From IMG/VR virus record IMGVR_UViG_2541047705_000012: DNA of 37,440 bases, one strand, 5' to 3'. This document shows, in pieces, positions 1-20,260 of the stretch (its first letter is position 1; each line of letters begins with the position of its first letter). Below the pieces are notes generated by a model. It searched no databases. It was not told where the DNA came from and worked only from the letters and a program-made list of their open reading frames with translations. Source of the stretch: a virus. Lineage: Duplodnaviria > Heunggongvirae > Uroviricota > Caudoviricetes. Made by a program: the position numbers and the translations under genes.

Positions 1-26
1 GGTAGATCTCCCTGACAAAAGCAGGA

Positions 27-284
27 ATGATGCCATTTGCTCGTTATTTCTGCATTTTCATAAACGTTGGTTTGGGAGAAGGGGCTGAACTACATGTTGG
101 TGTCGCTGTTAACCAGACTTCTGATACGTCGCCCTGGGCGGGTCCTGGATGCAATGGTACTTCTTTGATTCCTGAAGATGACGGGGTACTCACAAAGACG
201 GATCCTGCAAATATATGCGGTGATGTACGTATGGAGTTAATGAGTGACTATGCTTATGGCCTCAGCGTTGCTACAAGGTGTTAG
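27..284 (+). CDS. Alternative side-tail-fibre C-terminal cassette (Sv-prime-like), promoterless in the current orientation; would be fused to the constant N-terminal part of the fibre gene after inversion
   Basis: Frame is open from position 6 through crossover site A to a stop at 282-284. Shares the LGLGEG, CNG and ELMSD motifs with the C-terminus of the minus-strand fibre ORF 1739-2284, and is in the same frame relative to the crossover core. Confidence 0.5.
   Translation: MMPFARYFCIFINVGLGEGAELHVGVAVNQTSDTSPWAGPGCNGTSLIPEDDGVLTKTDPANICGDVRMELMSDYAYGLSVATRC
55..80 (+). other. Serine-invertase (Hin/Gin/Pin/Cin family) crossover site A
   Basis: 26-bp site TTTTCATAAACG-TT-GGTTTGGGAGAA; half-sites resemble the hix/gix consensus TTATCAAAAACC; 20 of 21 bp identical in inverted orientation to 1980-2000. 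Confidence 0.6.
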
Positions 285-1738
285 ATTCTCTCAACACCAG
301 AGCCATCTGTAGGTACTATTAAGGTGCTGGTAGTTATCCTTCTGGTAACATTGACAGGCTCTGGTGCTAAATTTACTGATTCTGCAGGGTCTGACGCGAC
401 CGCGATTAGTTTTTTTGTCGCCATCAGTAATGACAATTCGGTGGCGTTTAAAGTGGACAAAACCCTGGTTGATACCCGTCCTCCAGACATCGGCGTTAAA
501 TAGTTAATGATTGCAGCATAATGGTGAAATCAATATTATTTACTCCCGTAGGTGCAACAAATGATGGGCAAGTATCGTTTCAAAACTATGAGGGTGAAGC
601 TCCGCTACATGATTATGTTTTTGATATTTCCAGTGAAATTTGTGAGGATTTCCTGGGTTTTTCTTGACAAGGGAAAGAAGGTGTAGATAACGGTGGAGGA
701 CGTCCCGGTCGTTCTGTTAATTCAACCTCATGAGAAGAGGAGGCAGTGCTGCCCGGTGAAATGATCTAAATCTCTTAAGCTGGAGAAGTAAATACAATCA
801 TAAAACCGGATCAGTGGCCTGGAAATGCAACTACTAGTCGTCTGATAGCCGAATACGTTGCACAGTATGGTGAGTAGCTGGTTTACCTGAACGCGGCGCA
901 ACTGATCGATGCTGCAGGCGCGGCAGAAGTACAGCGTCCGTCGCTGACTGCAGTTCCAATGGGATCCAACGCTGCGATTCACTTGAAATTGTAGCCCGCA
1001 CCGCGTCAAAGGCATGCAGAAACACCTCGAGTCGGCGTTTTTCTGGATGACTTAGACTCGGTCACGGCAGCAAATACCAGCACATCGGAGGAATGCAAGT
1101 GGTTGGAACTGCAGTCAGCGTATGACGTTGAACTTCTGCCGCATCGAAAGCATCGCCCTGTTCCGGCTCATCATCATTATCCCACTACTAATTATCCTGC
1201 GCCAGTTCCGCCGTTAACAGACGACCAGTAGCTGTTTTGTCGGGGTAATGACGGGTTGTTGTGAAGTTTTTGGCTTCTGCAGTCTCAGTTATATATTCGA
1301 TTTCACCGGTCTAGACCTGCTCCTATTTCCAAGGGTTTAGGTAAACAAACCAACCGGGCGCTCCTCCCGTGTCAGCTATACCTTGTGTCTCCTGTCAGGA
1401 AAGTCCCAGAAATTCCACATCTGTTTCACGGTTTTTTCCTATAATATAAATATAATGCGTAGTTGCACCATCATAGTTATGAACGAAAATTTCCCCTTAC
1501 AAAGTTTCAATTCGTCGTCTAAATAATACTGAGTTCACCATTATCCTGCAATGACGAAATATTTAACGCCAATGTCGCGTGGAAGGGCTTCGTTCGGGTT
1601 AATGTCGACTTTAAACGAAACCGACTGATTATCCCTGATGGTAGCAAAAAAGTAACTCCCGGTTGAGTATAACCCTATTGTATCAGTAAATTCAGCACCT
1701 TAGGCTGTCGTTGTTACCAGGGTGATAGCGCGCTCCAC
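285..1738. repeat. Two diverged homologous arms in inverted orientation (roughly 441-730 vs 1330-1618, and 920-959 vs 1103-1142), symmetric about position ~1030; fragmented ORFs, possibly decayed tail-fibre-assembly genes
   Basis: Reverse-complement alignment by eye gives about 75 percent identity with indels. Some differences are synonymous (VQRPSL vs VQRHTL), implying former coding sequence. Neither arm has an ORF of 60 aa or more in the expected orientation. Confidence 0.45.
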
Positions 1739-2284
1739 CTAAAAAGGAACTACAAATGGCAATGTTGTTGACGGCACATAACGCTTTGTAGAAACGGCGA
1801 TCGCATCATCCTTGTCACTCATTAACTCCACCCCTAAATGGCCCATTATATTTGCAGTATAAACCTGAATGAGTACCCGGTATGCTTGAGCAGTCAAAGC
1901 CGCTCCATTGCATTCAGGCACCCCTGTGGACGACATAGCAGGGGGTTGGGGTTCCGCGTTACCAACATTCAATTTAGAGCCTTCTCCCAAACCAAGGTTT
2001 TCGAGAGCCGTTTTCACCGTGCCGTCCGATTTGATATCGCTAAACGGATTCTTGCGGCTTAACAGCAGCGCACGAAGCGCGGTAAGCAGCTGGTCGTGCC
2101 GCGCCTTCTCCAGACTGGCACCGGATGCCTCCACCACGCTGCAGAGTTCTTCCTGCAACATGTCAAAGTAGTCATCATCCAGATCGGTGGCAGGCGTGCC
2201 TGTCTGGGGGTTACCACGGGTAAAACCGTTCTTACCCGCGCCGAACTTATCCTTCTGCGCGGTTTTCGTGTCTATACGATGCAT
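1739..2284 (-). CDS. Side tail fibre protein (e14 StfP-like), currently expressed orientation; constant N-terminal part outside and variable C-terminal part inside the invertible segment
   Basis: 181-aa ORF directly downstream of the gp48/YmfQ-like gene; [11 protein letters not shown] motif typical of short side tail fibres; crossover site B lies inside the coding sequence at the LGLGEG motif. Confidence 0.65.
1982..2007 (-). other. Serine-invertase crossover site B, inverted relative to site A
   Basis: Minus-strand sequence CTCTCGAAAACC-TT-GGTTTGGGAGAA; close match to hixL core GAAAACC-NN-GGTTT. Confidence 0.6.
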
Positions 2285-2287
2285 GGA

Positions 2288-2872
2288 TTACTCCGGATAT
2301 TTAAAAATTACGTAGGTATGCGAAGGGCAGAGTTTGTTAAGCACACATTCGACGACGGTGTCGCCCCAGATACGCAGCGCGGAATCACAGGGATCGCCAC
2401 ATGTCATCCAGGTGCTGTTGGTGGCGGCTGGCATGTTGACCTGCCAGTAATACCGCCATTCCGGCGCATTCACCGCGTCAGTACAGGCCGATGAGCAGGT
2501 GAACGTGCTTTTGTCGTATCGCGTGATGGTGGCGTCTGGTCTGCCCAGGGCAGCAAGCTGTGCAAGGTAAAAATCCTCATTGATGCCGCCCGCCAGGTTA
2601 ACCTTCGCATCCAGTCGTTGCTGACGCTGGCGAAGGGTCTGTGTTCCTGCGGGAATACATTCATCCGGCAGGCCGCACAGACGCTCCCAGCGATTTATCA
2701 GTTCGGTGGTGGTGCGCGGATCCAGCTCCCGCATCAGGGCATCCGCACGCTGATGAACGCGGGTTAATGACTGTGCCGCACCGGCAATCGCCGGATCGCT
2801 GGCTGACCACGCCGGACCGGGCGGCAGCAGTGCCGACAACAGACGGATGTAATCATCGTTTGTCACGCCCAT
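2288..2872 (-). CDS. Mu gp48-like baseplate/tail protein (YmfQ, DUF2313 family)
   Basis: 194-aa ORF between the baseplate J-like gene and the tail fibre gene; sequence recalled as YmfQ-like. Confidence 0.7.
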
Positions 2873-14847: not shown

Positions 14848-15498
14848 TTAGAAGTTCAGATTTTTCAGTGCATTCAGTGCAGAGCCCACATCCTCAGCGT
14901 CGCGCAGGGACAGTGCGCCATAGCCCCCGGCCATGAATGCTTTGGCCTGGGTACGGGAGAGTCCGACATCACGCAGGACTCTTTCGATTTTTTTCTGTTC
15001 GGGGATTTCCCCGCGGGCCAGTGCGTTCTTGACGTCGCTGATCCGCGCCTCGTCGTTAGACGGGAACGTCACCAGGCTGACTTCCCAGAGGTCGATTTCT
15101 TTCAGCAGAAAGGCTTCTTTGCTCCGGTCGTATTCCCAGTCTTTCAGGACGTACCCAATAGAAAGGCCGGTTAACGAACCGGCCTTCATGTGTGCATGTG
15201 CGCGTTTTGCGAGGGGATCATCATCAATAAGCAACCGTCCCCTGACGTAAAGCCCGACATCGTCTTCCTTCATTTCGGTGTAAACACCGATGGGTTCATC
15301 CATGCGGTGCTGCCAGAGCAGCGCAGGTAACGCTTTTCTGTCACTCCACGCCCGCAGGGAAGCAGCAAATGCCCCGGACATCACCACATCATCGTGGCTG
15401 TCCTTTACACCAAAGACGGAGCCATACCCTTCAAACTCACCGGAGTCACTGACAGATTTCAGACTCAGCGGTACATCAAGACGTTGTTTCGTCTGCAT
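14848..15498 (-). CDS. Prohead protease (HK97 family)
   Basis: Longest ORF is 14848-15534; preferred start is the ATG at 15498 (AAGGA 7 nt upstream). N-terminus matches the EFEGY[GA]SVFG motif of HK97-type proteases. Confidence 0.85.
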   Translation of the reverse strand: MQTKQRLDVPLSLKSVSDSGEFEGYGSVFGVKDSHDDVVMSGAFAASLRAWSDRKALPALLWQHRMDEPIGVYTEMKEDDVGLYVRGRLLIDDDPLAKRAHAHMKAGSLTGLSIGYVLKDWEYDRSKEAFLLKEIDLWEVSLVTFPSNDEARISDVKNALARGEIPEQKKIERVLRDVGLSRTQAKAFMAGGYGALSLRDAEDVGSALNALKNLNF

Positions 15499-16717
15499 TG
15501 GCGTTATCCTTCTGCTTACCGGCTTTACTGCCATCGGAGGGTTTCGTGGTCATGTTCATCGGTGTGAGATAGACATCCCCACCGGGACGGGGATTCATAT
15601 CTTCCAGGTCGCGGCAGTCATTGGGAGAGTAAATTCCCCAGTTAATCCCGGTGGCGTAGGCTTCAAAACGGGACTTCATATCCCCGCGCAGTAACGCCCC
15701 GGCGTTAAATTTGGCGTAATAAACGCCCTGCTTACTTTTTCGAACCAGTCCGGTGTTGATCCGCTGCTCGATGCGGGTCAGATACGGCACCAGTGAATAG
15801 TTGATAAATCCCAGCCCCAGCTCTTCAATATTGTTGAAGGTGGCGCGATCGGTGTTCTGCACCATGTGCAACGGCACCCGGAACAGACGACAGATTTCTT
15901 CAAGCTGAAACTTGCGGGTTTCCAGGAACTGGCTGTCCTCGGCGTTCAGCGCCATCGACTTCCAGTCCAGCCCCATCTCAAGGATCATCGGGCGGTGAGC
16001 ATTACCAAGCCCGGTGTGACGCTCCTCAAAATCTTTCTTCAGGCGCTCGTAAGCCTGATCTGACAGCGTCTGCTCTGTACGCAACACACCCGACGTCACC
16101 GCACCATTGCTGAACAGTCTGGCCCCGTGCTCTTCGGTCGCAGCTGCCAGCGATATTGCCTCGCGGGCATAGGCGATGGGATTCAGCCCCACCAGACCGT
16201 CCAGCGTCAGCGTGCGCACATGCCAGATATCTTCCTGGCTCAGCACATCCGTGGAGCCGTCCGAGAATGTGACCTGATAGACCGGCTCCCAGCTACTGTT
16301 AAGCTTCGGTACCACACAGCCAGGATCGACGGGCAGCAGTTCAGCCACTTCGCCAAATGCTTTCACTTTGTAGGCGTAAAAGTTTCCCCGCAGGCACAGA
16401 CAGGTGACCACCAGCTCCCAGAACTCCTGCGGCGTCATATAGCCATTGGGATGCGTGGAGATCAGCTTATGCAGACGTTCGCCGGTGGCCCTCTGTTTCA
16501 GGCTGCCGTTCAGGTGATACAGATTGCAGGGCAACATCCCGACCGACTCTGCCAGCACCCTGACGCAGGAAAAAACCGCCGTCAGTCGCATGGCCCGCTG
16601 GCTGCTGATCTGCTTTCCGGTATAGGTGTCGTATGACAGCCCGATAGCCTCCGCCAGCTCTGCTGGCGTGGTCACCGGCGCGTCACTTTTTCGTTGAAAT
16701 AATCCCGAAAAGAACAC
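15476..16717 (-). CDS. Portal protein (HK97 family)
   Basis: 413-aa ORF between terminase and protease. Confidence 0.9.
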   Translation of the reverse strand: MFFSGLFQRKSDAPVTTPAELAEAIGLSYDTYTGKQISSQRAMRLTAVFSCVRVLAESVGMLPCNLYHLNGSLKQRATGERLHKLISTHPNGYMTPQEFWELVVTCLCLRGNFYAYKVKAFGEVAELLPVDPGCVVPKLNSSWEPVYQVTFSDGSTDVLSQEDIWHVRTLTLDGLVGLNPIAYAREAISLAAATEEHGARLFSNGAVTSGVLRTEQTLSDQAYERLKKDFEERHTGLGNAHRPMILEMGLDWKSMALNAEDSQFLETRKFQLEEICRLFRVPLHMVQNTDRATFNNIEELGLGFINYSLVPYLTRIEQRINTGLVRKSKQGVYYAKFNAGALLRGDMKSRFEAYATGINWGIYSPNDCRDLEDMNPRPGGDVYLTPMNMTTKPSDGSKAGKQKDNANADETTS

Positions 16718-16910: not shown

Positions 16911-18644
16911 TTAAAGCGAGCGGATCCCGTAGGACTCAATGTGGTCAGACAGCGTGTCTTCTTTCTCGTACAACATGGCTCTGCCAACCGCCATAATCAG
17001 CGCAACTGCACCATCGATTTTGTTTTCCGCCTGCTCTTTGACGGGTTTCACCACATCATCGTTACCCGGAATGGTTTTGCCGACCACGTTGCCGATACAC
17101 CAGGTCATGATGGGATTGCCATCATGATGAAAGCGCCCCGATTCAATTGCCGCTTCCAGCTCTTTCATCGGGTCGGACATGTTGGTGTAGTTCTGAATGA
17201 TAGTGATGGGGTTCAGGTCTTCATCAGCAAGGTCATGTGACAACCCGGTCGCCCCGAAGGGGTCGATGGGTGACTCACTGACCGGGCTGATTTTGTTCGC
17301 CGCTTTGGCCTCCTCGAGGATGTAGCGATAATCCACCTCCGCACCATCGGTAACGGTCAGAACGCCCATTTCCACCCATTTCTGAAAGCGTTCGGCTGTC
17401 CGTCGATCTTCATTTTTCTCGACGCTGTACACCGTGTCATACGGTACCCAGAAACGCGGGGCCACACTGTAGTAATGCGTTTTACCGTCAATCTCGCGGG
17501 TATAAAGTCGCGCCATGCTGTTCATATCCAGCTTACGCGCCAGGTCAAAGGCCAGAATGCACGGCTGCCCCTCGAACTGCTCAAGGGTCAGTGATTTATC
17601 CTCGCAGCTCTGCCAGCTCACCAGGTTGAAATACGCCGAACGCGCCGACACCCAGATATTGAGGTGTTTTGTTTTAAAGACGTTTGCCAGACGGGCGTTA
17701 TTTTTCGCACGCTGCTGCTGACTTAACAAAAATTCGCGATAAACCGACACGCCAATATTTGGATTGGCTTTTTCCAGCACCTGCGGGTCGGTCCAGTCGT
17801 CACCTTCATCAACGGTATAGATGATCCCGAACAGTTCATCGTTAGGCACCGAGCCATTGAGCATCTCGATGACTTCCCGCCGCTTGTCGTAGCACGGCCC
17901 CTCAATGTTGTACCCGGCGGTGGTGATAGCCCACATCAGTGGCTGACGTCGCGCCCCCATCCCGGTAAGCATCGTGGTGTAAAGCGCATCGGTGGCGTGC
18001 TCGTGATATTCATCCACCACCGCACAGTGGGGTGATGAACCATCACCGGGGTTACCGATCAGCGGTTCAAACCGCGCGCCATCCTCCGGACGGTTCATGT
18101 TTGAGGCGTTAACCTCAATCCCGAACGCTTCCGTCAGCATGGGTGTGCGTTTACACATCAGTCGAGCCGGGCGAAAGACTTCCCACGCCTGTTTCTCTGT
18201 CGTGGCACCGGAATACACTTCCGCGCCAAACTCGTTATCACAGGCAAAACAATACAGGGCAACACCGGCAGAGATTGCCGATTTGCCGTTCTTACGGGGG
18301 ATTTCGGTATACACCTCCCGGAAGCGGCGCAGCCGGGAGCCTTTATTGACCCAGCCAAACGCGCAGCAGATCACAAAGAGCTGCCACGGCTCCAGCGTGA
18401 TGGGCATCCTCTTAAATGCCCACTCACCCTTGGTGTGCGGCAACAGCTGAATAAATTTGGCGGCCCGTTCAGCCAGGTCCTTGTCGAAGCGGTAACGAAA
18501 CGACTTACTTTTTTCCGCCATCAGGTCATCAAGATGGCGCTGGCAGGCCTGAATCACAAACTGGCAGGCCACAATCTTTCCGCGCACGACATCCCGGGCA
18601 TACTGATTGGCAGCATTTACGTTGGGGTAAGATTTCCGGCTCAT
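16911..18644 (-). CDS. Terminase large subunit
   Basis: 577-aa ORF; start overlaps the small-subunit stop by 4 nt. Confidence 0.9.
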
Positions 18645-19135
18645 GATTCGATGATTTTCAGAAACGGGTTAGTGGCTTTCTTCTGCCCCGCCAGGCCAAT
18701 CAGACGCTGACGGCTGCTGGGGTCGAGTCCGAGCATTGCCCCCGTGCTGCTCATCTCGGACTCCTGTTCTTTTTTGGCTGTCAGCTCCGGATTTTTGACC
18801 CTGCCGCCCATTGCGCCGGTGATGGTATTGCCCTGTATGGCAATATTTTTCACAGCACGTCGCCAGAACTCATAGGCCACGCACCACCGCTCAAGCACCG
18901 CGAGGTCAGTCACGCACAGCAGGCCCTGACCGCAGAGTTCTTTGGTTGTCAGTTGCCACATGATCGTGGCGAGAGGGAGATCTTCTTCAGCGAACCACTC
19001 CGGTGGCTCAACACCTTTGATGGGCGTAAAAACAGGTTCATCTTTGTTCAGGGCTCGCTTGCCGGGGTTTCCGGCCAGCGCCTTGCGCGCCGTTGGCTTG
19101 GGGCGACGCCCGGAACGCCCCGCCGTTCCAGCCAT
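18641..19135 (-). CDS. Terminase small subunit (P27 family)
   Basis: N-terminus [27 protein letters not shown] matches the P27 pattern; start chosen at the ATG at 19135 (AGGAG 8 nt upstream) rather than the GTG at 19144. Confidence 0.8.
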
Positions 19136-19185
19136 ATGCGGCACTCCTGGTTAAATTTCATTTTTCGCGGGTATAAAAAAACGAT

Positions 19186-19234
19186 GGGGCGGGCAGTCCG
19201 GAAGACGTCAGGTCACAGGGATTTGACCCGCCCC
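19186..19234. repeat. GC-rich inverted repeat (GGGGCGGG ... CCCGCCCC) between the HNH gene and terminase small subunit; candidate cos / packaging site
   Basis: 8-bp G/C arms around a ~33-nt spacer containing GACGTC, in the only sizeable non-coding gap (19145-19260) of the packaging module. Confidence 0.35.
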
Positions 19235-19260
19235 TCCCCTCAGAAAGTTGAGAATTATTA

Positions 19261-19611
19261 TCACTTCAGTCGTTCACGGGCCGTCTTCGCCTTATGACAC
19301 GGCCAGCACAGGCTCTGCAGATTGCAGTCTGCATCAGTGCCGCCATGCGCTTTAGGGATGATGTGGTCAACGGTTTTCGCCTCACGCACCACACCGACAT
19401 GCAGGCACAACTGACACAGGCCTTTGTCACGCTTCAGCACGCGCGCGCGGATAACATCCCACTTCGAACCGTAGCCGCGCTGGTGACGGGATTGTCCTGG
19501 CTTGTATTGTTTCCAGCCTTCGCTTTTGTGGCTTTCACAATAGCCTGACGGATCAGTGGTGGTTTGGCGGCAGCCGCGAACGCGGCAGGCTTTTGGGGTT
19601 CGTGGGGGCAT
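19261..19611 (-). CDS. HNH endonuclease (terminase-associated)
   Basis: 116-aa ORF with Cys pairs (CRVRGC, CQLC, CWPCH) and an HNH-like H..H..N motif, immediately upstream of the terminase genes. Confidence 0.85.
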   Translation of the reverse strand: MPPRTPKACRVRGCRQTTTDPSGYCESHKSEGWKQYKPGQSRHQRGYGSKWDVIRARVLKRDKGLCQLCLHVGVVREAKTVDHIIPKAHGGTDADCNLQSLCWPCHKAKTARERLK

Positions 19612-19713
19612 TTAAAGTGGGATCTAACTCTAATAATTTAAAAAATTTAATTGGGTCTTGATATTAATCACATAGACTCAATGCTCTTTAGTTCTTACAT
19701 AGGTGGTTGTATT

Positions 19714-20154
19714 ATGAGTATCCCCAGTTTAGATGTTCATAAAGTTGTTAAGTGCGCAGAGCATAAAAAGGCTTTAGATGCAATATCTCTCAAACTTAAG
19801 AATAACATTATTGACTCAAGCTCTGAATACGATTTTCTTGGCGACACAATAATTTTCAATAAAGATAAAAAAAATAGGTTAACCCTCAAACTTTCAACAT
19901 ATGAACTAGAACTTATTTTCAAAGAAACACTGCTAGTCATTGATGAAGCTCCTGTATTGAAGTTTGCTGCCATTGACCCAACCGATGAAAATAACAACGA
20001 GCTGATTGATTTATTTTTATCCAAAGGTGGATTTATTTATATTAGAGAATACAAATCCGAGCCACATTATGAGTATGGCGACACTTCTCTATTTTTACAT
20101 ATACTTGACGCTACTCTTAAAGAGCTTAAATCTGCAAACAAAATATCCTATTAA
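19714..20154 (+). CDS. Hypothetical protein, low-GC moron transcribed opposite to the phage late operon
   Basis: Start taken at the ATG at 19714 (GGTGG 7 nt upstream) rather than the track start at 19651; soluble 146-aa product, no family recognised; GC far below the phage backbone. Confidence 0.5.
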   Translation: MSIPSLDVHKVVKCAEHKKALDAISLKLKNNIIDSSSEYDFLGDTIIFNKDKKNRLTLKLSTYELELIFKETLLVIDEAPVLKFAAIDPTDENNNELIDLFLSKGGFIYIREYKSEPHYEYGDTSLFLHILDATLKELKSANKISY

Positions 20155-20260
20155 ATAAATTTTTGCTAACATAGCCCCGCGCCATGACAAGATTTTCTGT
20201 TCTAGATGCAAGGGCTATGTGTGAATATCTATAAACAAAAACCCCATCCGGTGATTTTTG

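What the first reader, a model, noticed from the sequence alone, without database searches (positions are those of the whole stretch)
19145..19260. Candidate cos / packaging site between the HNH endonuclease and terminase small subunit
The only sizeable non-coding gap in the packaging module contains an 8-bp G/C inverted repeat (GGGGCGGG ... CCCGCCCC) around a ~33-nt spacer. In HK97-like phages the cos site lies between the HNH gene and the small terminase gene, and HNH assists cos cleavage.
Basis: inference. Interest (0 to 1): 0.35.

Follow-up and report, generated by a model that had tools for sequence, protein, structure and literature searches.

The report
Known SfV/SfI-type phage cos site

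Summary
The inverted repeat is real: GGGGCGGG at 19186-19193 and CCCGCCCC at 19227-19234, with a 33-nt spacer. Alone it is not significant, since 9.2% of shuffles of the gap do as well, and it is not conserved in related lineages.

The cos interpretation is supported. The window is a complete SfV/e14-like prophage, 100% identical to E. coli ATCC 11775. Over the 111-nt cos core it differs at 2 bases from Shigella phage SfI and at 1 from SfV. Run-off sequencing of SfI virion DNA mapped a 10-nt cohesive end, 5'-TGCCCGCCCC-3'. That sequence is window 19195-19186 on the minus strand, which is the terS-proximal repeat arm. Phage phiP27 has an annotated cos-site at the homologous place. The record ends of HK97, Edwardsiella EPP-1 and Proteus Pm34 fall at the same two nick positions.

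The other repeat arm belongs to a G-rich/TCAAATC box (19241-19220), always 24 nt upstream of the cohesive end. This box recurs in many diverged HNH + P27-family terS modules. Downstream lies a T7 tract and ACCCGCGAAAAAT, at the position where HK97 terS binds.

Verdict: an already-known cos site found in about 20% of complete E. coli genomes; low interest. The one possibly undescribed point is the widely conserved upstream box.

The parts
19261..19611 (-). HNH endonuclease gene (116 aa, with an N-terminal Cys-rich stretch); the packaging accessory nuclease
   Evidence: Pfam PF01844 5e-14 over the full model. 111 of 116 residues identical to SfI HNH. 45% identical to HK97 gp74 over 42 aa, E 8e-10.
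19220..19241 (-). G-rich/TCAAATC box (GAGGGGAGGGGCGGGTCAAATC). It contains the HNH-proximal repeat arm (GGGGCGGG on the minus strand, 19234-19227). Candidate upstream cos subsite, in the position of lambda cosQ.
   Evidence: The core ends exactly 24 nt before the cohesive end in the window, SfI, phiP27, HK97, EPP-1 and Pm34. The exact 15-mer occurs in at least 120 IMG/VR contigs. Among unique contexts it lies between an HNH ORF (52 of 70) and a Terminase_4 ORF (45 of 57). At least 18 lineages share it while their next 95 nt are under 70% identical. Its function is inferred.
19196..19219 (-). 24-nt spacer (CCTGTGACCTGACGTCTTCCGGAC), variable in sequence, fixed in length, ending in GAC
   Evidence: the length is constant, the sequence varies, and the final A(C) is conserved.
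19186..19195 (-). Cohesive-end sequence (cosN equivalent), 5'-TGCCCGCCCC-3'. Predicted nicks lie between 19186 and 19185 on the minus (terS-sense) strand and between 19195 and 19196 on the plus strand. It contains the terS-proximal repeat arm (19186-19193).
   Evidence: Identical to the 10 nt missing from run-off reads of SfI virion DNA (PMC3636060). The SfI and EPP-1 records end right after it, the Pm34 record starts right before its equivalent, HK97 ends with the equivalent CGCCGCCAAA, and phiP27 annotates CGCCCGCCCC as cos-site. The 3' polarity is inferred.
19153..19181 (-). T7 tract (19181-19175) plus ACCCGCGAAAAATGAAATTT (19172-19153), at +5 to +33 from the cut. Candidate small-terminase binding site (cosB equivalent).
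   Evidence: Invariant in 80 close relatives. TTTTTA...ACC(C)GCGAAA is kept in phiP27, EPP-1, Moraxella Mcat25, Klebsiella Kp4885-3 and Serratia OS31. HK97 terS binds +15 to +29, a C:G step next to an A-tract (PMC11331095). The role here is inferred, and HK97 terS is not detectably similar in sequence.
18641..19135 (-). Small terminase gene (P27 family); Shine-Dalgarno AGGAG at 19148-19144, ATG at +51 from the cut
   Evidence: Pfam PF05119 4e-20. 161 of 164 residues identical to SfI terS. RefSeq annotates the same start.
16911..18644 (-). Large terminase gene (ATPase plus nuclease domains)
   Evidence: Pfam PF03354 and PF20441.

Best explanation
This is the cos site of an intact SfV/SfI/e14-like temperate phage integrated in E. 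coli. It is read on the minus strand, in the direction HNH to terS. During packaging of concatemeric DNA, the terminase (P27-family TerS plus HK97-type TerL) and the adjacent HNH endonuclease make two staggered nicks that bracket 5'-TGCCCGCCCC-3' (19195-19186). This leaves 10-nt cohesive ends, which by inference are 3'-protruding as in HK97. The layout is: G-rich/TCAAATC box (19241-19220), a 24-nt spacer, the 10-nt cohesive end, A/T tracts with ACCCGCG (19181-19153), then the terS start at +51. Shown: the sequence is virtually identical to a cos site mapped on virion DNA, and the geometry matches five other phages. Inferred: the 3' polarity, terS binding to the downstream A-tract region, and a role for the upstream box in positioning or triggering the cut (analogous to lambda cosQ). 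The 8-bp inverted repeat is a by-product. One arm is the C-rich cohesive end and the other is the G-run of the box.
For: Flanking genes are HNH, Terminase_4, TerL and portal. The window is 100% identical to the E. coli ATCC 11775 chromosome and carries a complete prophage gene set from integrase to tail fibres. Megablast gives 95-99.6% identity to SfV, SfI, SfII and SfIV, whose linear records break inside this gap. The SfI cos was mapped by run-off sequencing as TGCCCGCCCC (PMC3636060). The window differs from SfI at 2 of 111 core positions and from SfV at 1. phiP27 has an annotated cos-site CGCCCGCCCC at the homologous place. The spacing is identical, 24 nt from box to overhang and 34 nt to the top-strand end, in HK97, SfI, EPP-1, Pm34 and phiP27. 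HK97 has 10-nt 3' overhangs, terS binding at +15 to +29, and cleavage stimulated by HNH gp74 (PMC11331095, PMC9410871, PMC13595911). A 10-nt gap in run-off reads from both ends is what recessed 5' ends, that is 3' overhangs, would give (my inference).
Against: No virion DNA of this particular prophage was examined. The SfV GenBank record is linearised 7 nt upstream of the SfI-mapped overhang (window 19202), and I could not read the SfV paper. The exact nick positions therefore rest on SfI plus the concordant records. HK97 terS shows no detectable sequence similarity to this terS, so carrying its binding-site position over is only an analogy. Nothing here shows which protein reads the G-box.
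Confidence: 0.9

Rival explanations
1. The inverted repeat itself is the functional signal. In this reading it is either a palindromic site for a dimeric protein, or a hairpin or cruciform that terminase recognises, with cleavage in or around the 33-nt spacer.
For: The 8/8 repeat with a 33-nt spacer is also present in phiP27, whose spacer sequence differs. All-G/C 8-mer repeats are rare in the window, 2 in 37 kb.
Against: 9.2% of shuffles of the gap contain an equally long repeat. Close relatives change one arm without compensation: L020 and L068 have GGGGGAGG, and L060 has TGCCCGCCTC. In 16 of 18 diverged lineages that share the box, complementarity between the box and the overhang region is no better than shuffled controls. 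HK97, EPP-1 and Pm34 lack the repeat yet cut at the same distance. The mapped cohesive end coincides with one arm, not with the spacer.
Confidence: 0.07
2. The repeat plus the following T7 run is an intrinsic transcription terminator or attenuator, or another RNA structure, on the minus-strand late transcript between HNH and terS.
For: On the minus strand the stem GGGGCGGG...CCCGCCCC is followed, after 4 nt, by TTTTTTT. The predicted hairpin has an energy of about -27 kcal/mol.
Against: The terminator scan does not call it: the loop is 33 nt and the T run is 4 nt from the stem. Fold energies are not unusual, with z-scores of -1.3 and -1.5 here and in phiP27, and -0.25 and +0.48 in EPP-1 and HK97, where different segments pair. 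There is no Rfam match at E up to 1. The T tract is conserved in relatives that lack the repeat, which fits a DNA-level A-tract element. The head genes must be transcribed through this point.
Confidence: 0.04
3. The sequence is a cos relic. The prophage is cryptic and the site is never cleaved in this host.
For: E. coli carries many defective SfV/e14-like prophages. No induction data for this element were available here.
Against: The integrase, repressor, replication, Q, lysis, HNH, terminase, head, tail and baseplate genes are all annotated as intact; only one frameshifted hypothetical gene lies within the element, and a truncated recombinase gene lies just outside the window's left edge. The cos core is under strong conservation: the same 110 nt occur in 1118 of 5426 complete genomes, and 815 records are at least 99% identical.
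Confidence: 0.1

Closest known systems
cos sites of Shigella serotype-converting phages SfI and SfV (also SfII and SfIV)
   Same: Essentially the same sequence: 109 of 111 positions match SfI and 110 of 111 match SfV, from the G-box to the terS ATG. The 10-nt cohesive end TGCCCGCCCC is identical. The HNH and terS proteins are the same (111 of 116 and 161 of 164 residues identical to SfI)..
   Different: The host and the cargo differ. This is an E. coli B2/ExPEC-type prophage with no serotype-conversion genes noted in the annotation. There are two single-base differences from SfI, at 19219 and at +1 (19185). An AT-rich insert lies upstream of HNH.
cos site of Stx2e phage phiP27 (AJ298298, annotated misc_feature 'cos-site')
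   Same: The terS family is the same (the family is named after P27; 48% identity by tblastn). The box GGGGAGGGGCGGGTCAAATC is identical, the 24-nt spacing is the same, the overhang CGCCCGCCCC differs at 1 base, and the TTTTTAC-ACCCGCGAAA element is present downstream.
   Different: 12 of the 24 spacer positions differ, the first overhang base is C rather than T, and the rest of the phage genome is different.
HK97 cos (10-nt 3' overhang; gp1 TerS, gp2 TerL, gp74 HNH)
   Same: The gene order HNH-cos-terS-TerL is the same. A G-run plus ATCAAATC box ends 24 nt before the overhang CGCCGCCAAA. GAC precedes the overhang. A C:G step next to an A/T tract lies at about +15 to +30. The terS ATG is at +50 in HK97 and +51 here. 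The mechanism is known from PMC11331095 and PMC9410871.
   Different: The terS proteins are not detectably similar. HK97 has no inverted repeat. The overhang sequence differs at 5 of 10 positions. HK97 is a siphovirus, whereas this element has a contractile (Mu-like) tail module.
Phage lambda cos (cosQ-cosN-cosB)
   Same: It is a three-part site in the same order relative to the terS gene: an upstream element, the nick site, then a downstream small-terminase site next to the terS gene. It sits in a lambdoid genome between the lysis and head genes.
   Different: Lambda has 12-nt 5' overhangs, a Nu1-type TerS with R sites and IHF, no HNH partner, and a partly symmetric cosN. There is no sequence similarity.

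Membership tests
SfV/SfI/phiP27-type cos site (HK97-like, HNH-assisted, 10-nt cohesive ends) | Lies in the intergenic region between an HNH endonuclease gene and the small terminase gene, on the same strand and directly upstream of terS-TerL-portal | tested here: met
   ORFs and Pfam; RefSeq annotation of the identical locus.
SfV/SfI/phiP27-type cos site (HK97-like, HNH-assisted, 10-nt cohesive ends) | Contains the experimentally mapped cohesive-end sequence with homologous flanks | tested here: met
   TGCCCGCCCC at 19195-19186 (minus strand) equals the SfI virion-end gap (PMC3636060). 109 of 111 flanking positions are identical to SfI. phiP27 annotates a cos-site at the homologous position.
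SfV/SfI/phiP27-type cos site (HK97-like, HNH-assisted, 10-nt cohesive ends) | Virion DNA of this element has unique ends with 10-nt complementary single strands at this position | not testable with these tools
   This needs virion DNA (run-off sequencing, or read-start pile-ups analysed with PhageTerm).
SfV/SfI/phiP27-type cos site (HK97-like, HNH-assisted, 10-nt cohesive ends) | Fixed geometry: a G-rich/A-rich box 24 nt upstream of the overhang, and terS starting about 50 nt downstream | tested here: met
   One search shows 24 nt in the window, SfI, phiP27, HK97, EPP-1 and Pm34. The ATG is at +51 here and +50 in HK97.
HK97 cos in the strict sense (recognised by a gp1-type TerS through an arginine clamp on G21 plus an A-tract) | A TerS homologous to HK97 gp1 | tested here: not met
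   BLASTP of the window terS against HK97 gp1 gives E 6.9. The site may work like HK97 cos, but the recognition protein belongs to another sequence family (PF05119).
Lambda-type cos | Nu1-type TerS, 12-nt 5' overhang, no HNH partner | tested here: not met
   terS matches PF05119 only, an HNH gene is adjacent, and the homologous mapped end is 10 nt.
Intrinsic (rho-independent) terminator | G+C-rich stem with a short loop, followed immediately by a U tract | tested here: not met
   The loop is 33 nt and the T7 run starts 4 nt after the stem. It is not called by the scan and the fold z-score is -1.3 to -1.5.
Known RNA family (Rfam) | A covariance-model match | tested here: not met
   No match at E up to 1 in 18600-20700 on either strand. 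No tRNA or tmRNA in the window.

The most novel reading that the evidence does not exclude
The HNH-proximal arm of the repeat is part of a deeply conserved, apparently undescribed cos subsite, a G-run followed by TCAAATC. This box sits at a fixed 24 nt from the nick in HK97-like and P27-like packaging modules, across lineages whose terS proteins are only 12-30% identical. It is not the TerS site, because in HK97 a -20 to +80 fragment binds TerS. It could be the docking or ruler element for the TerL-HNH nuclease pair, or a cosQ-like termination signal. That would help explain how these phages place two different nicks 10 nt apart.
Probability: 0.3. Interest if true: 0.45.

Novelty: already known. 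Interest (0 to 1): 0.15.

Why it matters
For the finding as stated, little is new. It correctly locates a cos site that is already characterised in SfI, SfV and phiP27, and that occurs unannotated in about a fifth of complete E. coli genomes. The practical value is in annotation. The virion ends of this prophage family can be predicted to the base, which helps to define prophage-derived genome termini, to recognise cos-carrying satellites, and to interpret transduction. The conserved upstream box, if it is confirmed as a functional subsite, would add a missing element to the HK97 packaging model. That model currently accounts only for the TerS site downstream of the cut.

Tried and rejected
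1. RNA structure or terminator. The folds are not better than shuffles and are not conserved, the terminator scan is negative, and Rfam and tRNA searches are negative.
2. Promoter in the gap. None was found.
3. Covariation of the repeat. The 80 IMG/VR loci found through terS were all at least 99% identical in protein, so they were too close to be informative. The few variants break the repeat without compensation. The 18 diverged lineages show no excess complementarity.
4. HK97 TerS homology as a basis for transferring the binding site. BLASTP was negative, so only a positional analogy is claimed.
5. IHF-like consensus in the box. By eye the match is poor in the window, and I dropped it.
6. 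Literature. The SfV genome paper and Kala et al. 2014 are not held. The phiP27 paper was not found in the library. A string search for the box returned only unrelated papers. Searches on cosQ with HK97, on cos/HNH conserved sequences and on cf-PICIs found no description of the box.
7. The ST64B and SfII record ends also fall in or next to the gap (window 19151 and 19260). They match no other phage's ends, so I treated them as arbitrary linearisation points.

Full report
**Observation.** All genes around the finding are on the minus strand: portal 15476-16717, TerL 16911-18644, terS 18641-19135 and HNH 19261-19611. Pfam confirms HNH (PF01844, 5e-14), P27-family small terminase (PF05119, 4e-20), TerL ATPase and nuclease domains, and portal. 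The repeat is exactly as described: + strand GGGGCGGG at 19186-19193 and CCCGCCCC at 19227-19234, with a 33-nt spacer, and each 8-mer is unique in the window. SfV, SfI and RefSeq all use the ATG at 19135, which follows AGGAG (19148-19144), so the gap is 125 nt. By itself the repeat is weak evidence. 9.2% of 5000 dinucleotide-preserving shuffles of the gap contain a perfect repeat of 8 bp or more with a 3-60 nt spacer.

**What the window is.** Region 17000-21000 is 100% identical to the chromosome of E. coli ATCC 11775 (DSM 30083) and to several ExPEC/APEC strains. The RefSeq annotation of that locus shows a complete temperate-phage gene set. It includes integrase, LexA-type repressor, replication, Q antiterminator, holin, lysozyme and Rz, HNH, terS, TerL, portal, HK97-family protease and capsid, sheath, tube, tape measure, baseplate and tail fibres. 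This is an SfV/e14-like element with an HK97-type head and a contractile tail.

**Homology to mapped cos sites.**
- Megablast of 18900-19500 hits Shigella phages SfV, SfI, SfII and SfIV at 98.6-99.6% identity, and their linear GenBank records break inside this gap.
- The SfI paper reports direct sequencing of the ends of virion DNA compared with the prophage. It found a 10-nt gap, 5'-TGCCCGCCCC-3', and concluded that SfI packages by a cos mechanism like SfV (PMC3636060).
- The SfIV paper states that SfI, SfII, SfIV and SfV have identical cos sites (PMC3851460).
- In the window that decamer is 19195-19186 on the minus strand. From the G-box to the terS ATG, 111 nt, the window differs from SfI at two bases (19219 and 19185) and from SfV at one. 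HNH is 111 of 116 and terS 161 of 164 residues identical to SfI.
- A distant blastn search also finds phiP27, whose record carries a misc_feature 'cos-site', CGCCCGCCCC, at the homologous position.

**Geometry across phages.** I read every site in the terS orientation and measured from the end of the AAATC core.

| Phage | What falls at the boundary | Distance from core |
|---|---|---|
| HK97 | record ends ...GAC CGCCGCCAAA | 34 nt to record end |
| SfI | record ends ...GAC TGCCCGCCCC | 34 nt to record end |
| Edwardsiella EPP-1 | record ends ...TAC TGCCCGCCTC | 34 nt to record end |
| Proteus Pm34 (deposited in reverse orientation) | record starts just before CGCCCCCTTA | 24 nt to record boundary |
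| phiP27 | annotated cos-site begins | 24 nt after the core |

These are the two boundaries expected for nicks 10 nt apart. For HK97 the literature gives 10-nt 3' overhangs (PMC11331095 and the Figure 1 legend of PMC9410871). A 10-nt gap in run-off reads from both ends is what recessed 5' ends would give, so I infer 3' overhangs here too. Predicted nicks lie between 19186 and 19185 on the minus strand and between 19195 and 19196 on the plus strand.

**The repeat is a by-product.**
- One arm (19186-19193) is the C-rich cohesive end. The other (19227-19234) is the G-run of a box, GAGGGGAGGGGCGGGTCAAATC (19241-19220).
- Among 80 IMG/VR loci with terS at least 99% identical, the stretch from the overhang to terS is almost invariant. 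The upstream arm varies without compensation: L020 and L068 have GGGGGAGG, and L060 has TGCCCGCCTC.
In 80 unique contexts the upstream ORF is an HNH protein in 52 of 70, and the downstream ORF is Terminase_4 in 45 of 57. This holds although terS identity to the window falls to 12-30%.
- At least 18 lineages share the 15-mer while the next 95 nt are under 70% identical. The conserved columns outside the box are the CT after it, the A(C) at the end of the 24-nt spacer, and a C-G-x-C pattern at the start of the overhang equivalent.
- In 16 of these 18 lineages, complementarity between the box and the overhang region is no better than shuffled controls. The overhang equivalents include CGCCGCCTGA, CGCCCCCTTA and even G-rich CGGCGTGGGG.
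- In a sample chosen by terS similarity rather than by the box, five proteobacterial phages have G-run/A-rich variants of the box: Moraxella Mcat25, Klebsiella Kp4885-3, Serratia OS31, and Pseudomonas PG1 and TC7. Vibrio VaK lacks it, as do four phages of other hosts: Clostridium, Streptococcus and Agathobacter (Firmicutes) and Mycobacterium.

**Downstream element.** After the cut come ATCG, T7 (19181-19175) and ACCCGCGAAAAATGAAATTT (19172-19153). The TTTTTA...ACC(C)GCGAAA pattern recurs in phiP27, EPP-1, Mcat25, Kp4885-3 and OS31. In HK97, TerS binds +15 to +29 (CTAACCCGATTTTTT) through a G:C contact next to a bendable A-tract. A -20 to +80 fragment suffices for binding (PMC11331095). I therefore assign 19181-19153 as the likely TerS site. 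This is by position and composition only, because HK97 gp1 and this terS are not detectably similar. For the same reason the upstream box is not the TerS site in HK97, and its reader is unknown (TerL, HNH or a termination sensor).

**Rival explanations.**
- Terminator or RNA hairpin: the scan does not call it. Fold z-scores are -1.3 to -1.5 here and in phiP27, and about 0 in EPP-1 and HK97 where different segments pair. Rfam and tRNA searches are negative.
- The repeat as the recognition element: contradicted by the lineage comparison above.
- A relic in a dead prophage: this cannot be excluded without induction, but the module is intact. The 110-nt core is present in 1118 of 5426 complete E. 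coli genomes, mostly at 99% identity or more, and is unannotated in the records listed.

**Caveats.** The SfV GenBank record is linearised at window 19202, 7 nt upstream of the SfI-mapped overhang. I could not read the SfV paper, so the nick positions rest on SfI, the phiP27 annotation and the concordant HK97, EPP-1 and Pm34 ends. Record ends of phages other than SfI and HK97 were taken at face value. I did not check how they were determined.

**Verdict.** Interest is low. The only point I could not find described in the searchable literature is the widely conserved G-run/TCAAATC box at a fixed 24 nt from the cut.

Noticed in passing
window 19220-19241 (minus strand); loci L090-L209; HK97 L004; phiP27 L085: A G-run plus TCAAATC box lies exactly 24 nt upstream of the cohesive end. 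It is shared by HK97, phiP27, SfI, EPP-1 and Pm34. The exact 15-mer occurs in at least 18 diverged HNH + Terminase_4 lineages in IMG/VR. I found no description of it in the searchable literature.
   Followed up: partly
window about 19600-20600 and about 21900-22400: Two AT-rich islands (GC 0.32-0.37 against about 0.55 in the flanks). The first lies between HNH and Rz and holds a + strand ORF (19651-20154) and a - strand ORF (20261-20512). The second lies between the holin and Q and holds ORF 21937-22272. They look like moron-type inserts of unknown function.
   Followed up: no
loci L141, L115, L156 and similar (IMG/VR): In another box-bearing lineage a different inverted repeat (TGACCCC ... 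GGGGTCA) brackets the box and the overhang equivalent. It is significant in L141 alone (0.8% of shuffles) but is not a general feature.
   Followed up: partly
window 19202, against SfV record U82619.2 position 1: The SfV GenBank record is linearised 7 nt upstream of the cohesive end mapped in SfI. The ST64B and SfII records end at yet other points in the gap (19151 and 19260). Deposited ends of this phage group are therefore not consistent with one another.
   Followed up: partly
window 19136-19245: The 110-nt cos core occurs in 1118 of 5426 complete E. coli genomes, with up to 4 copies per genome and 15 places on plasmids. No feature is annotated under the match in the five records listed.
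   Followed up: yes
window 23224-24219 (minus strand): A DUF968 protein in the nin region, upstream of Q, has a C-terminal Cys/His-rich HNH-like motif (…CACCGKPADDPHHLIGHG…CRKHHDELH). It may be a second HNH-type nuclease in the prophage, unrelated to the cos-adjacent one.
   Followed up: no
window 1-2300, and just outside its left edge in NZ_CP033092.2: Two tail-fibre-assembly genes lie in opposite orientation next to a truncated recombinase gene. This looks like an e14/Mu-like invertible tail-fibre segment whose invertase is incomplete.
   Followed up: no
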